Position numbers and translations under genes: made by a program | Source: Nitrososphaeria archaeon | GTDB taxonomy: Archaea; Thermoproteota; Nitrososphaeria; Geothermarchaeales; JDFR-13 | Direction of reading: 5' to 3' | NCBI GenBank assembly: GCA_027078545.1 | Contig: JALWXN010000004.1 | Coordinates: 416,001-480,000 of the forward strand | DNA length: 64,000 bases | The notes under the pieces: model-generated | What the model was told of the DNA's origin: nothing | Database searches by the model: none | Seen by the model: only the letters and a program-made list of their open reading frames with translations | Shown here: piece by piece, positions 1 through 10,835 of the stretch | How positions within the stretch are numbered: the stretch's first letter is position 1 | Layout of the letters: each line of letters begins with the position of its first letter

Positions 1-23
1 TTCGACGACCTGGCGGGTGCTAG

Positions 24-1601
24 GTGATGCTCTTCAGGGAGTTTGTCGAGGTGTGTAAGAGGATTAGGGCTGCTAAGGGTATAAACGAGAAGATCGGGCT
101 TATAGCCAGCTATCTCAAGAGGCTGGATAGGGAGGAGTGGATACCCTACATCCTCTTCCTCACGGGCAACCCTGTCCCCGACACTTTGGAGGGGGGCCTG
201 GGGGTGGGGCATAGGACCCTTGTAAAGGCTATGAAGAACCCGGTTAGGCCCCTGATAGGCGGTGGGCCACCCAGCCTCCTCGAGGTCTATGGGACGCTCC
301 TCGAGATAGCTGGTATGAGGGGTAGGGATAGCCAGGCCAGGAGGGAGGGCCTCCTGAGGAGCCTGATGGGTAGGCTTAGCAAGGAGGAGAGGGAGTGGCT
401 GGCCAGTATAATCATGGGGGAGCCTAGGATAGGGGTGATGACTGGGCATGTGCTGAGGGCCCTGGCCCATGCGCTACACATCTCTGAGGATAAGGTGCGT
501 AGGCTCTACATGCTGAGGGGGAGTATCCATGAGGTGGCGGAGCTACTGGCAAGGGGTGTGGATCCAGCTAGTGTGGGGCCGCGTCTATATAAGCCGCTTA
601 GGCCGATGCTAGGCACCCCAGCCACGACAGTCACCGAGGCCTTCAACATACTGGGCGTCTCCAGGGCCGCTGCGGAGGAGAAGTATGACGGCTTCAGGAT
701 ACAGATCCATATCGGGGATAGAGGGGTAAGGATCTTCAGTAGGAACCTCCTAGACGTGACGCAGAGCTTCCCGGAGCTGGTGGAGTACTCCTCCAGGATC
801 GAGGCTAGGGAGGCGATACTGGATGGTGAGGCTGTGGCCCTGGGTAGGGATGGTAGGCCCCTACCCTTCCAGTACCTCATGAGGCGCTTCAAGAGGGTGG
901 AGGATGTTGAGGACTATATGGACTCGATACCCGTTACTATGCGGCTCTTCGACGTGATCTACCTTGATGGTGAGCTCCTCATCGATAGGCCATACATATA
1001 TAGGAGGGAGAGGCTGGAGAGGATCGTCCCCGAGGAGTATCTAGCCAGGGTGGTGCTGGACGCATCGTTGTCCGAGGCGGAGGCGATGTATAGGGAGGCT
1101 ATCGAGGCTGGTCATGAGGGGATCATGCTGAAGAGGATGGACTCTCCCTACGTCCTTGGGAGTAGGGGGAGGTACTGGGCCAAGGTGAAGGAGAAGGAGA
1201 CCCTAGACCTGGTGATAGTTGGTGCAGAGTGGGGGCATGGTAGGCGTAGGGGGTGGCTCAGCGACTACTACCTCGCGGCCTATAACCCCAGGACTGGTGG
1301 CTACGAGATAGTGGGTAAGACGTTCAAGGGGCTCACCGATGAGGAGTTCCAATACATGACTAGGAGGCTTAAGGAGCTCGTGGTTAGGGATGAGGGGTAC
1401 AGGGTCTTCGTCAAGCCTGAGATAGTTGTCGAGGTCGACTTCAACGAGGTTCAGGAGAGCCCAAAGTATAGGAGCGGCTATGCGTTGAGGCTGGCCAGGA
1501 TAAGGAGGATCAGGGAGGATAAGAGCCCCGAGGAGGCCGCCACGATAGACGATATAAGGAGGATTTATGAGGAGCAGTTCCGGAGGAAGGCCCGCCTGTG
1601 A
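24..1601 (+). CDS. lig: ATP-dependent DNA ligase
   Basis: Motif I EEKYDGFR, ILDGEAV, LFDVIYLDG, EGIMLK, WAKVK, and C-terminal OB fold (LRLARIRRIREDK). Confidence 0.95.
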   Translation: MMLFREFVEVCKRIRAAKGINEKIGLIASYLKRLDREEWIPYILFLTGNPVPDTLEGGLGVGHRTLVKAMKNPVRPLIGGGPPSLLEVYGTLLEIAGMRGRDSQARREGLLRSLMGRLSKEEREWLASIIMGEPRIGVMTGHVLRALAHALHISEDKVRRLYMLRGSIHEVAELLARGVDPASVGPRLYKPLRPMLGTPATTVTEAFNILGVSRAAAEEKYDGFRIQIHIGDRGVRIFSRNLLDVTQSFPELVEYSSRIEAREAILDGEAVALGRDGRPLPFQYLMRRFKRVEDVEDYMDSIPVTMRLFDVIYLDGELLIDRPYIYRRERLERIVPEEYLARVVLDASLSEAEAMYREAIEAGHEGIMLKRMDSPYVLGSRGRYWAKVKEKETLDLVIVGAEWGHGRRRGWLSDYYLAAYNPRTGGYEIVGKTFKGLTDEEFQYMTRRLKELVVRDEGYRVFVKPEIVVEVDFNEVQESPKYRSGYALRLARIRRIREDKSPEEAATIDDIRRIYEEQFRRKARL

Positions 1602-1646
1602 CTATATAGGTGTGACCACCGTCCCATCCAAGATAATCACAGCATC

Positions 1647-1653
1647 TATAAAG
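1647..1653 (+). promoter_or_regulatory. Candidate TATA box for the structured element at 1678-2168
   Basis: TATAAAG ends about 25 nt upstream of the first paired base, matching archaeal TATA-to-start spacing; no credible + strand gene follows. Confidence 0.45.
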
Positions 1654-1677
1654 GGTTTAGACACTCCCAGTAGAGTG

Positions 1678-2168
1678 GCATCGGCCAGCCCGAGGGGCTG
1701 GCCCGGGAGGCCTAGGATGGGCCCCTGGATGAAGGGGTCCAGCCTATAAGGAGGTCTCCAAGGGGGTTCCCCATAGCCCCCTGGAGAACCCTCCGACCCA
1801 CCCCGTTCCATAGGGGATTTGGACCCCAAAGGGGGAGGGGGAGCACCCTGATTCCCCCTGAGGGGTATCACGCATTGGGCCGACCCCTATGGAGCGGGGT
1901 CATGGGCCACTCCGGGTTGGAGGGTTCTCCAAGGAGGGTTATGGGGAGTCCTCTAAGGAGGCCTCCGAAGTGGTTGGACCCTCTCATCCAAGGGCTCGTA
2001 TATAGGCTTGGTGTGCCTCCTAGGCCTCCAAGCCTCTGGGAACCCCCCTGGGGATGGGCAGGGGGGTGGCTGGCCACCACTTACCCCGGCAAGCCCTGAA
2101 CCAGGAGGGTTCCCGACGGGCCCGAGAGGCTTGGGGGTCGTGGGCCGGCCCCTCGGGCTGGCCGATGC
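1678..2168 (+). ncRNA. Candidate large rod-shaped structured RNA (or fold-back element), family unknown
   Basis: Nested complementary segments: 1678-1704/2142-2168, 1706-1717/2018-2029, 1718-1744/1972-1998, 1750-1799/1914-1966, 1800-1816/1884-1900, plus side arm 2030-2051/2101-2132. Non-canonical pairs are mostly G-U on the + strand. Confidence 0.65.
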
Positions 2169-2193: not shown

Positions 2194-3273
2194 CTACTCC
2201 TTGACAGCCCTGCTTATCCTCTGTATAGCTAGGTGTATGACGATCTCCGTCTCCCTCTGGTATGGATTCCTCCTCCTCAAGGTCTTCCCATCTGTATAGA
2301 TCTCTATATACCCTGTCCTACCCGCTATGCTGGAGAGTATGGTCAGGGCCTCGTTATACATCCTTGTCTTGGCTAGGCTGTATGCGAGTAGGGATGCCTG
2401 TAGCGGGTCGTATATAGGGTGGTTCTCCCTGCCGGATGGGCTCTGGCATAGTGTCCTATCCTCTATATGTAGAGCCCTATACATATGTCCCATGTGGCTC
2501 CTGAGCCTCTCGTCCCCCCTATAGGCTAGGGGAAGCACTATCGCCCAGCCGTCTATATGTGTGGCTAGACTCCTGGCCGAGGTTGTGAGTATATGGGTTA
2601 TGAATCTCCTCCCGTCCCAGAAGCTGTCCTCTATCCTGCTTATCAGGTTGGTAAGGATCTTCTCATACTTCTCGGAGTCCCCACCCTCCAGCGCCGCGTT
2701 GTAGGCCTTCTCCAGGGCGGCTAGGTAGGCGAGGTTTGTGGATAGGAGATTCCCACCCCTACCCATGCCTAGCCAGTCCTCGTCGGCCTCCTGCTCGACG
2801 AGCCAGTTCCTATTGATGTCCCTCCTCCTTAGGTATTCAAGCCCCTCTATGGCTGTGGGTAGGAGGTCTTCGAGGCCCCCTGTGAAGAGTATGTATTCGA
2901 GTAGGGATGCCGTGGCTAGGGCTGTGGCTAGGGGTGATGGATACCTGGAGTAGGTGGTCTTCCTCCCCTGGGAGATTGTGTCTGGGAAGCTTCCCGCCGT
3001 GTAGTCATCGACCACCTCTACGCCCCGGGGGGATCTATACTCATCGCCCCTTCTGAGCTGGGCCTTCTCGAGCCTGGGTATCGCCTCGGAGGCTAGTGTG
3101 TAGTAGGCAACCTCATCCTCCTCCCTAAGTAGGAGTAGGACTAGGCTGTGTATCCTCGTGTCTAGCGCCTTGTCTAGGCTCCTCTCAAGGCTGGTTATGT
3201 TGTGTTTATACCTCTTGGATATCTCGGCTGTTGCGTCTAGTCCCCTCCTGTATAGGTCGACCCTGATCTCCAT
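2194..3273 (-). CDS. Six-hairpin glycosidase-like protein (divergent)
   Basis: Segment RDINRNWLVEQ..EDW...RGG....TNLAYLAAL and later FWDG resemble (alpha/alpha)6 glycoside hydrolase/debranching-enzyme domains. Confidence 0.5.
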   Translation of the reverse strand: MEIRVDLYRRGLDATAEISKRYKHNITSLERSLDKALDTRIHSLVLLLLREEDEVAYYTLASEAIPRLEKAQLRRGDEYRSPRGVEVVDDYTAGSFPDTISQGRKTTYSRYPSPLATALATASLLEYILFTGGLEDLLPTAIEGLEYLRRRDINRNWLVEQEADEDWLGMGRGGNLLSTNLAYLAALEKAYNAALEGGDSEKYEKILTNLISRIEDSFWDGRRFITHILTTSARSLATHIDGWAIVLPLAYRGDERLRSHMGHMYRALHIEDRTLCQSPSGRENHPIYDPLQASLLAYSLAKTRMYNEALTILSSIAGRTGYIEIYTDGKTLRRRNPYQRETEIVIHLAIQRISRAVKE

Positions 3274-10748: not shown

Positions 10749-10835
10749 TGGAGCCCCGGCCGGGATTTGAACCCGGGACCTGCGGCTATCCCTTGGCCGT
10801 ACGAGGCCGCCGCTCTACCGCTGAGCTACCGGGGC
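10749..10835 (-). tRNA. tRNA-Thr(CGT) with a 12-nt intron at 37/38 (intron 10788-10799)
   Basis: GCCCCGG acceptor, GCTC/GAGC D stem, GCGGC/GCCGC anticodon stem, loop CT-CGT-A[CGGCCAAGGGAT]A, T arm CCGGG-TTCAAAT-CCCGG, discriminator T, encoded CCA. Confidence 0.93.

What the first reader, a model, noticed from the sequence alone, without database searches (positions are those of the whole stretch)
1678..2168. About 490-nt rod-shaped structured element: candidate novel archaeal large ncRNA
Seen: the intergenic gap between two convergent genes folds back on itself. A 27-bp terminal stem (1678-1704/2142-2168) closes a junction with a ~320-nt rod (1706-1717/2018-2029; 1718-1744/1972-1998; 1750-1799/1914-1966; 1800-1816/1884-1900; apical 1836-1843/1852-1859) and a ~100-nt side arm (2030-2132). 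In the helices I traced there are about 12 G-U pairs versus 3 A-C mismatches on the + strand, the asymmetry expected from selection on a + strand RNA rather than on a DNA inverted repeat. TATAAAG sits about 25 nt upstream. I found no SRP helix-8 motif, no RNase P P4 motifs and no hammerhead core on either strand. Inference: an undescribed thermostable RNA, for example a DNA-mimic/6S-like regulator, a scaffold or a viroid-like relic.
Basis: partly seen in the sequence, partly recalled or inferred. Interest (0 to 1): 0.85.

Follow-up and report, generated by a model that had tools for sequence, protein, structure and literature searches.

The report
New Y-shaped archaeal noncoding RNA gene
The gap after the DNA ligase gene holds a single-copy gene for a large, very stable, Y-shaped RNA that matches no described RNA family and is conserved, with many compensating base changes, across one family of uncultivated heat-vent archaea; what it does is unknown.

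Summary
Window 1677-2168 (+) folds into a 28-bp closing stem, a ~300-nt rod and a ~125-nt side arm (MFE -371.6 kcal/mol, z = -15). It occurs once in this genome. It is not a MITE, SRP RNA or RNase P RNA; the last two lie elsewhere. No Rfam family reaches threshold.

Homologues of 334-492 nt occur once per genome in 12 of 13 other genomes of the same family (NCBI label Ca. Geothermarchaeota/Geothermarchaeales). More come from independent metagenome contigs. None was found in about 290 other genomes of the class and phylum, nor in phage or plasmid collections.

Every copy keeps the same Y shape while the sequence diverges. Both-sided compensatory changes occur at 30 of 35 side-arm pairs and 14 of 17 closing-stem pairs.

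A TATA box at -30 to -25, a G-U excess, and lower energy on + in 12 of 13 copies point to a + strand transcript. The element has 55-67% GC against 33-42% in most flanks.

The side-arm loop always carries a six-base palindrome (UGGCCA or GCCGGC), and a bulge always carries GGGCCC. My guess, at low confidence, is a stable RNP scaffold that pairs with itself through kissing loops. Expression could not be tested.

The parts
1641..1676 (+). Archaeal-type promoter. The TATA box TATAAA lies at 1647-1652 (-30 to -25), and T(-1)/G(+1) form the initiator.
   Evidence: Positions -30 to -25 are A/T in 15 of 15 homologues, T at -1 is invariant and G is at +1. The sequence was read.
1677..2168 (+). Predicted mature RNA, 492 nt, running 5' GGCAUC... 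to ...GAUGC 3'.
   Evidence: MFE is -371.6 kcal/mol with z = -15.3. Homologues of 334-492 nt begin and end in the same way.
1678..1705 (+). Closing stem, 5' strand. It pairs with 2141-2168.
   Evidence: Across 14 sequences the first 17 bp are 97% paired, 14 of 17 columns carry changes on both sides, and 0 of 500 shuffles do as well.
2141..2168 (+). Closing stem, 3' strand.
1708..2009 (+). Long rod of about 135 bp with few small internal loops. Its sequence is not conserved, but its pairing is.
   Evidence: Drawn from the MFE. In the other genomes the rods differ in sequence and length yet stay 71-81% paired, with z scores of -11 to -22.
1823..1880 (+). Rod apex module. It consists of helix ACCCC/GGGGU, a small purine-rich internal loop, a capped hairpin and a 3' bulge that ends in GGGCC.
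   Evidence: The layout is conserved, with compensatory variants ACUCC/GGAGU, GCCCU/AGGGC and GCUCC/GGAGC.
2015..2138 (+). Side arm, the most sequence-conserved part of the RNA.
   Evidence: Covariance models R1 and R2 were built on it. Across 19 distinct sequences it is 91.6% paired and 30 of 35 pairs carry changes on both sides.
2056..2096 (+). Side-arm core: GGC-A-(C)GG, a hairpin, then CCG-GGCAA-GCC. The internal loop GGCAA is invariant.
   Evidence: Invariant columns. A compensatory AGC/GCU variant occurs in L164.
2071..2076 (+). Six-base palindrome UGGCCA in the apical loop of the side arm.
   Evidence: UGGCCA occurs in all sequences of this genus and GCCGGC in all other genera, extended to 8 nt in two of them.
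2118..2123 (+). Invariant palindrome GGGCCC inside a 9-12-nt bulge on the 3' strand of the side arm.
   Evidence: Present in 15 of 15 elements and in the new contigs. The flanking helix covaries, GCCUC/GAGGC against ACCCC/GGGGU.

Best explanation
This is a gene for a previously undescribed, independently transcribed, stable structured RNA on the + strand. It is 492 nt here and 334-458 nt in relatives. It is vertically inherited and occurs once per genome in one family of uncultivated Nitrososphaeria (NCBI label Ca. Geothermarchaeota/Geothermarchaeales).

Shown by the data: the Y-shaped fold, which has a fully paired closing stem joining the 5' and 3' ends, a three-way junction, a long rod and a side arm; its conservation through compensatory changes; an archaeal promoter at a fixed distance; and the strand.

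Inferred at low confidence (about 0.3): the RNA works as an RNP or RNA-only scaffold. The conserved single-stranded elements of the side arm are the GGCAA loop, the GGGCCC bulge and the palindromic apical loop. Together with the rod apex they would be the functional sites. The rod, whose sequence varies freely and whose length varies, would be a rigid spacer. The palindromic loop would mediate symmetric kissing-loop self-association into a homodimer or larger assembly, as solved for the bacterial OLE and GOLLD RNAs.
For: Fold: z = -15.3 here and -11 to -22 in nine homologues.

Distribution: one strong hit per genome in 12 of 13 other family genomes, covering 7 genera. There were no hits in 3 genomes of sister families, 134 other genomes of the class, or 150 genomes of the phylum. 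Independent assemblies from JGI, ENA and NCBI carry it too.

Covariation: the side arm is 91.6% paired, 30 of 35 pairs have changes on both sides, 0 of 500 shuffles do as well, and slid controls reach at most 50%. The closing stem is 97% paired with 14 of 17 columns changed on both sides. The apex helices also covary.

Strand: a TATA box lies at -30 to -25 with T/G at -1/+1 in 15 of 15 sequences. The + fold is better in 12 of 13 copies. Summed over the copies, + has 160 G-U pairs and 24 A/C mismatches, against 90 and 64 on -. In the aligned helices there are 23 G-U and 7 A-C.

Stable-RNA signature: the element has 55-62% GC inside flanks of 33-42% (67% against 56% here). This is the known mark of structural RNAs in AT-rich hyperthermophiles (Klein, Misulovin and Eddy 2002, from my own knowledge).

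Independence from neighbours: the element follows lig in 5 genera but sits elsewhere in 2.

Not coding: no ORF is conserved.

Self-association idea: the loop palindrome switches from UGGCCA to GCCGGC with all three symmetric pairs changed, and GGGCCC is invariant. The same kind of palindrome switching was used as evidence for intermolecular kissing loops in OLE L9.3 and GOLLD L21a (bioRxiv 10.1101/2024.12.08.627333, read).
Against: In one genome (G006) the - strand folds slightly better. The genus of this window has no T-rich terminator after the 3' end. The alignments behind the covariation counts were fitted to the model structure, and the sequences are related, so the shuffle counts are not probabilities.

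Near-perfect rods could be maintained partly by DNA-level palindrome correction rather than by selection on RNA. The palindromic loop has only two states, which amounts to one evolutionary switch. No protein partner was identified. The convergent neighbour gene has a wider distribution than the RNA and resembles a glycoside hydrolase.
Confidence: 0.72

Rival explanations
1. The element acts in cis. It is a giant bidirectional terminator, insulator or 3'-UTR stabiliser between the convergent lig gene and the GH116-like gene, and it is transcribed only as the tail of a neighbouring mRNA.
For: It lies between convergent genes in 5 of 7 genera. Its 3' end abuts the stop codon of the convergent gene.
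Against: In G009, G007 and M046 it has left the lig context but keeps its full architecture. A TATA box at a fixed -30 to -25 with a T/G initiator is conserved in 15 of 15 sequences. A terminator would not need 340-490 nt, invariant loops and bulges, or a three-way junction.
Confidence: 0.08
2. The element works at the DNA level. It is a long imperfect palindrome or cruciform that serves as a protein-binding, recombination or replication-related site next to the PolB-DHH-ligase operon. RNA structure would then be incidental.
For: It is adjacent to replication genes. The arms are near-perfect and many 6-bp palindromes are present (GGGCCC, GCCGGC, CAGCTG). In several genera the strands of the closing stem are themselves palindromic.
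Against: G-U pairs would be G-T mismatches in DNA, and they are enriched on one strand: 160 against 90 in total, and 23 G-U against 7 A-C in aligned helices. The + fold is better in 12 of 13 copies. The promoter is conserved. The GC enrichment is typical of stable RNAs. The element is not linked to lig in two genera.
Confidence: 0.06
3. The element is a hairpin precursor RNA. The long, near-perfect, fast-evolving duplex would be cut into small guide RNAs, or it is a domesticated remnant of a mobile hairpin element such as a MITE or a retron-like msr/msd.
For: The rod sequence evolves fast while pairing stays near-perfect, with runs of up to about 20 bp. Read on the - strand, the order closing stem, short arm, long hairpin resembles a retron ncRNA.
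Against: There is a single copy per genome and no other similar or complementary locus in the genome. No target-site duplications were seen. No reverse transcriptase or transposase lies nearby. The strand evidence points to +, which is the wrong order for a retron. There are no hits in phage, plasmid or viral collections.
Confidence: 0.05
4. The element is a highly divergent or permuted copy of a universal RNA such as SRP RNA or RNase P RNA that Rfam models cannot recognise.
For: The order closing stem, rod, side arm, closing stem is the topology expected for an SRP RNA permuted in helix 8. A permuted SRP RNA gene is known in Thermoproteus (Plagens et al. 2015, from my own knowledge).
Against: Full-length canonical SRP RNA (143 bits) and RNase P RNA (132 bits) are present elsewhere in the same genome. 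The closing stem is perfectly paired and lacks the helix-8 loops. There is no BHB motif at the ends. No Rfam signal appears even at E <= 10, apart from chance hits.
Confidence: 0.03

Closest known systems
OLE, ROOL and GOLLD: large 'ornate' bacterial or phage ncRNAs of unknown function that self-assemble (bioRxiv 10.1101/2024.12.08.627333; PMC9723947)
   Same: These are also large RNAs (several hundred nt) with narrow distribution, strong covariation and no known biochemical function. They carry conserved exposed loops. For OLE L9.3 and GOLLD L21a, switching between palindromic loop sequences was the evidence for symmetric intermolecular kissing loops. Here the side-arm loop switches from UGGCCA to GCCGGC.
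   Different: There is no sequence or structural homology, and none of the Rfam models hits. This RNA is archaeal, far simpler (three helical arms, about 75-80% of nucleotides paired) and dominated by one long rod. Self-association is only inferred here.
Archaeal SRP (7S) RNA, Rfam RF01857, including the permuted circular form of Thermoproteus
   Same: It is also an elongated rod of about 300 nt with paired ends, functional modules at both ends of a long helix, and a three-way junction. It is GC-rich and stable in thermophiles.
   Different: A canonical SRP RNA is present elsewhere in this genome. The helix-8 and helix-6 motifs are absent here, and so are the Alu-domain hairpins and a BHB or circularisation signal. 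The element occurs in one family only.
6S RNA (bacterial RNA polymerase regulator)
   Same: It has a closing stem that joins the 5' and 3' ends, a largely double-stranded rod shape, and it is a stand-alone stable RNA.
   Different: 6S RNA is defined by a large central bubble that mimics an open promoter and by binding to the sigma70 holoenzyme. This RNA has no conserved bubble, archaea have no sigma70, and there is no Rfam hit.
GC-rich ncRNA genes of AT-rich hyperthermophiles (Hgc RNAs; Klein, Misulovin and Eddy 2002, from my own knowledge)
   Same: They were detected by the same signature: a GC-rich island in an AT-rich genome, here 55-62% against 33-42%. They are stand-alone archaeal RNAs of unknown function.
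   Different: No Hgc family in Rfam matches. This RNA is larger, has a different fold, and comes from a different lineage (Nitrososphaeria rather than Methanococcales or Thermococcales).

Membership tests
Any Rfam 15 family | A covariance-model score at or above the family's gathering threshold | tested here: not met
   Across the whole window only a tRNA at 10752-10835 passes. At E <= 10 over 1550-2300 the best hit is DUF1874 RNA at 27.9 bits, against a gathering score of 42, and it lies on the - strand. Eleven homologous loci give no DUF1874 hit and no other relevant hit.
Archaeal SRP RNA (RF01857) | It is the genome's SRP RNA, with helix-8 and helix-6 motifs | tested here: not met
   A canonical full-length SRP RNA lies at G000:C4:109171-109486 with 143.3 bits. 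The element does not hit the model.
Archaeal RNase P RNA (RF00373) | P4 and conserved-region motifs, and a model score above threshold | tested here: not met
   The canonical RNase P RNA lies at G000:C4:111970-112231 with 131.8 bits. The element does not hit the model.
MITE or other dispersed repeat | Many near-identical copies per genome, with terminal inverted repeats and target-site duplications | tested here: not met
   There is one copy in the 1.24-Mb genome, and the only other matches are its own arms. The other 12 genomes also have one strong hit each. The position is syntenic.
Retron ncRNA (msr/msd) | An adjacent reverse-transcriptase gene downstream of the ncRNA | tested here: not met
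   The neighbours are an ATP-dependent DNA ligase and a GH116/GH100-like protein. No RT appears in 10 further loci.
6S RNA | A conserved large central bubble flanked by helices | tested here: not met
   The rods have only small internal loops of 1-5 nt, and their positions are not conserved. No Rfam 6S hit was found.
BHB-processed circular archaeal RNA | A bulge-helix-bulge motif formed by the sequences flanking the mature ends | tested here: not met
   The first 12-28 bp from the termini are continuous helix without 3-nt bulges. The outer flanks are not complementary. Circularity itself was not testable.
Self-assembling large ncRNAs (works like OLE or GOLLD) | Self-complementary loop sequences that covary while keeping palindromy | tested here: inconclusive
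   The loop is UGGCCA in one genus and GCCGGC in six others, and GGGCCC is invariant. Only two states were seen. No structural or biochemical test was possible.
Independently transcribed archaeal RNA gene | A TATA box about 25-30 nt upstream of a purine start, conserved among homologues | tested here: met
   A/T occupies -30 to -25 in 15 of 15 sequences, T is at -1 and G at +1.
Independently transcribed archaeal RNA gene | A detectable transcript with defined ends | not testable with these tools

The most novel reading that the evidence does not exclude
This would be the first archaeal large ncRNA that forms an RNA-only quaternary assembly. Symmetric kissing would occur between the palindromic side-arm loops (UGGCCA or GCCGGC). 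A second contact could form through the invariant GGGCCC bulge, which recurs in the 3' tail or the rod apex in several genera. These contacts would join the Y-shaped monomers into dimers or a lattice, and the length-variable rods would set the geometry. It would be an archaeal counterpart of the OLE, ROOL and GOLLD architectures.
Probability: 0.18. Interest if true: 0.88.

Novelty: categorically new. Interest (0 to 1): 0.74.

Why it matters
Few large structured RNAs of unknown function are known, and the ones cited here (OLE, ROOL, GOLLD) are bacterial or phage-borne. I found no archaeal example in the literature searches. Historically, each such class has revealed new biochemistry.

This RNA has unusually clean comparative support, a simple architecture suited to structure determination (the shortest natural form is 334 nt), and a concrete, testable hypothesis of palindromic kissing loops. 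It is also invisible to current annotation. Public records leave the gap empty or call spurious ORFs inside it, so a covariance model would improve annotation of this lineage.

Two limits apply. The RNA is confined to one uncultivated family, and expression is unproven.

Tried and rejected
- **Rfam:** Searches at gathering and at E-value thresholds on the window and on 11 homologous loci found nothing. The DUF1874 RNA hit (27.9 bits, - strand) is not reproduced in any homologue, so I treat it as chance.
- **tRNA, tmRNA, bacterial signals:** The tRNA/tmRNA scan and the bacterial promoter and terminator scans found nothing.
- **SRP RNA and RNase P RNA:** Rejected, because canonical copies lie elsewhere in the genome.
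- **MITE:** Rejected, because the element is single-copy.
- **Coding potential:** No ORF is conserved in position or frame.
- **Virus or plasmid origin:** There are no blastn hits in the phage or plasmid collections. Two pattern hits in viral contigs failed the covariance model.
- **Wider distribution:** Models R1 and R2 found nothing in the sister families, in 134 other genomes of the class, or in 150 genomes of the phylum.
- **Missing family member:** G005 is only 74% complete, and its relevant contig ends 650 nt past the neighbour gene. Its lack of a hit is therefore uninformative.
- **Metagenome scan:** Of 120 pattern matches, 5 were real and 2 of those were new.
- **Neighbour protein as partner:** Rejected. 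It is order-wide, has no Pfam, NCBIfam or PDB match on its own, and its relatives match GH116/GH100 hydrolases.
- **Intramolecular loop-bulge pseudoknot:** Pairing GCCGGC with GGGCCC gives only 3-4 bp, and the two sites lie about 30 bp apart along the helix, so I judged it implausible.
- **K-turn:** K-turn readings of the GGCAA loop and of the rod's UAUAA/GAAGU loop do not fit the consensus. This was checked by eye only.
- **Closing stem and loop link:** The same hexamer recurs in the closing stem and the loop in some genera but not all, so I dropped this idea.
- **Literature:** The searches found no description of this RNA.
- **Full-length alignment:** No full-length covariance model was built, because the alignment (555 columns) exceeds the tool's 400-column limit. 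MAFFT also aligns the rods poorly.

Full report
**1. What is there**

Folded as RNA, 1678-2168 (+) gives -371.6 kcal/mol. One hundred dinucleotide shuffles give -255.5 +/- 7.6, so z = -15.3. The reverse strand gives -329.3, z = -11.9.

The fold has three parts:
- a 28-bp closing stem (1678-1705 with 2141-2168);
- a three-way junction leading to a rod of about 300 nt (1708-2009);
- a side arm of about 125 nt (2015-2138).

Segment 2018-2029 more likely belongs to the base of the side arm, as it does in the other species.

**2. What it is not**

- No Rfam 15 family reaches its gathering score. The best sub-threshold hit is DUF1874 RNA at 27.9 bits against a gathering score of 42, on the minus strand. 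It does not recur in any of 11 homologous loci, so it is chance.
- The genome has canonical SRP RNA (143 bits) and RNase P RNA (132 bits) elsewhere.
- The element occurs once in the 1.24-Mb assembly, so it is not a MITE.
- It is not in the phage, plasmid or viral-contig collections.
- ARAGORN finds no tRNA or tmRNA in the region.
- No ORF is conserved.

**3. Homologues**

blastn against relatives first showed a near-identical copy in a sister genome. It also showed short colinear matches in other species of the genus and in one other genus, always in the gap after lig.

I built a covariance model of the side arm (R1). It finds exactly one strong + strand hit in 12 of the 13 other genomes of the family, which span 7 genera. 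The one genome without a hit is 74% complete, and its relevant contig ends too early.

The search found nothing in these sets:
- 3 genomes of the two sister families;
- 134 other genomes of the class;
- 150 genomes sampled across the phylum with the improved model R2.

A metagenome pattern scan filtered with R2 gave two further sequences. Contigs fetched through ligase homologues gave five more. These come from independent JGI, ENA and NCBI assemblies, so the element is not an assembly artefact.

NCBI titles and protein names place the lineage in Ca. Geothermarchaeota/Geothermarchaeales within Nitrososphaerota.

In five genera the element follows the PolB-DHH-ligase operon. In G009, G007 and M046 it sits in another context with its architecture intact. 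The element is therefore a unit of its own.

**4. Conservation of structure**

All full-length elements (334-492 nt) fold into the same Y shape. They start 5' (G/A)GCAU(C/U) and end 3' (G/A)AUGC; one lineage has GGCGCC...GACGCC.

Their z scores range from -11 to -22.

- **Side arm:** Across 19 distinct sequences, 91.6% of cells are paired and 30 of 35 pairs show changes on both sides. Zero of 500 column shuffles reach the observed values, and sliding the 3' partners drops pairing to 35-50%.
- **Closing stem:** 97% of cells are paired over the first 17 bp, 14 of 17 columns show changes on both sides, and 0 of 500 shuffles do as well.
- **Rods:** Sequence and length are unconserved, and MAFFT cannot align them. 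In every genome 71-81% of the nucleotides of the whole element are paired, and the rod is drawn as a long duplex.
- **Apex helices:** These covary as ACCCC/GGGGU, ACUCC/GGAGU, GCCCU/AGGGC and GCUCC/GGAGC.

Two caveats apply. The alignments were fitted to the model structure, and the sequences are related, so the shuffle counts are not P values.

**5. Strand and transcription signals**

- Positions -30 to -25 relative to the first G are A/T in 15 of 15 sequences (TATAAA or TTAAAT). T at -1 and G at +1 are conserved. This is the standard archaeal TATA-to-start geometry (established knowledge).
- The + strand fold is more stable than the - strand fold in 12 of 13 genomes, by 10-46 kcal/mol.
- Summed over the MFE structures, + has 160 G-U pairs and 24 A/C 1x1 mismatches, against 90 and 64 on -.
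- In the aligned side-arm helices there are 23 G-U and 7 A-C cells.
- The element is a GC island: 55-62% GC in flanks of 33-42%, and 67% against 56% here. This is the classical mark of stable RNAs in AT-rich hyperthermophiles (Klein et al. 2002, from my own knowledge).
- T-rich tracts follow the 3' end within 0-30 nt in most genera, but not in the genus of this window.
- No BHB motif flanks the ends, so I expect a linear RNA.
- Expression could not be tested.

**6. Conserved single-stranded features and the mechanism I favour**

The invariant or near-invariant unpaired nucleotides lie in the side arm. They are the internal loop GGCAA opposite a single A, a 9-12-nt bulge that contains GGGCCC, and the apical loop.

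The apical loop always holds a six-base palindrome. It is UGGCCA in the genus of this window and GCCGGC in all other genera, and it extends to UGCCGGCA or GGCCGGCC in two of them. A palindrome inside a 7-9-nt hairpin loop cannot pair with itself within one molecule. The switch changes all three symmetric pairs and keeps complementarity.

The same argument supported the symmetric intermolecular kissing loops of OLE (L9.3) and GOLLD (L21a) that were seen by cryo-EM (bioRxiv 10.1101/2024.12.08.627333).

GGGCCC or GGGCC also recurs in the 3' tail in three genera, and in the apex bulge or apex loop in several.

From this I infer that the RNA is a stable scaffold. Its side arm and apex would be the interaction sites, its rod a spacer, and it would probably self-associate.

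This step is inference. Only two palindrome states exist, which is one switch. A mutational process that perfects hairpins could also produce loop palindromes, although the rod apex loops (GAGCA, GAACA, AUAAA) are not palindromic.

The convergent neighbour gene is not a likely partner. It occurs throughout the order, beyond the range of the RNA, and its relatives match GH116/GH100 glycoside hydrolases.

**7. Rivals**

The rivals, with their evidence and refuting tests, are set out under Rival explanations. They are:
- a cis-acting terminator or 3' UTR element;
- a DNA-level palindrome;
- a hairpin precursor or a domesticated mobile element;
- a divergent SRP or RNase P paralogue.

Together I give them about 0.2-0.25.

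**8. Verdict**

This is a previously undescribed, family-restricted, large structured RNA gene. Its function is unknown.

My confidence is about 0.85 that it is a functional + strand RNA and about 0.3 for the scaffold and self-association mechanism. The confidence of 0.72 given for the best explanation is a blend of these two.

Noticed in passing
window 2194-3273 (-): The convergent 359-aa ORF has no Pfam, NCBIfam or PDB match on its own. Two of its six aligned relatives match Pfam DUF608 (GH116 catalytic region, best E = 1.2e-6) and one matches GH100, with motifs such as EGGFPD and LLEQ..EDW. It is probably a divergent (alpha/alpha)6 glycoside hydrolase. It is present throughout the order.
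   Followed up: partly
L159-L167, upstream of lig; window 1-1601 and the sequence before it: The gene order PolB, DHH-like protein, DNA ligase is conserved in all nine ligase-bearing contigs of this lineage. In several of them the exonuclease domain of PolB gives only faint or weak Pfam hits.
   Followed up: no
G000:C4:109171-109486 and 111970-112231 (outside the window): The SRP RNA and RNase P RNA genes lie within 3 kb of each other, both on the minus strand.
   Followed up: no
window 10752-10835 (-): The only Rfam hit in the window is a tRNA that spans 84 nt against a 71-position model. It may carry an intron or a long variable arm.
   Followed up: no
L023:1700-1814 (-), L024:1301-1416 (+), L163:4261-4378 (+): In one genus (G011, G013, N163) the distal rod itself matches the side-arm model at 31-38 bits and carries a GGGCAAGGC motif like the side-arm GGGCAAGCC. 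This suggests an internal duplication of the side-arm module.
   Followed up: partly
L159:4350-4661 (-), L167:4076-4342 (-): Public gene calls place hypothetical ORFs of 103 and 88 aa in the gap after lig. In L159 the ORF lies inside the RNA gene. In L167 the contig ends after 260 nt and no RNA hit was obtained, so overlap with the RNA there is only presumed from position. These are probably annotation artefacts.
   Followed up: no
window 1683-1703 and 2143-2163: Each strand of the closing stem is itself a near-palindrome (GGCCAGCCCGAGGGGCUGGCC and GGCCGGCCCCUCGGGCUGGCC). This also holds in the rest of the genus and in genus g7. Terminal 5' and 3' hairpins could therefore form as an alternative to the long-range stem.
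   Followed up: partly
window 1677-2168 compared with congeners: This genome and its sister genome carry the longest (about 490 nt) and most GC-rich (67%) version. The extra 70-110 nt all lie in the rod.
   Followed up: no
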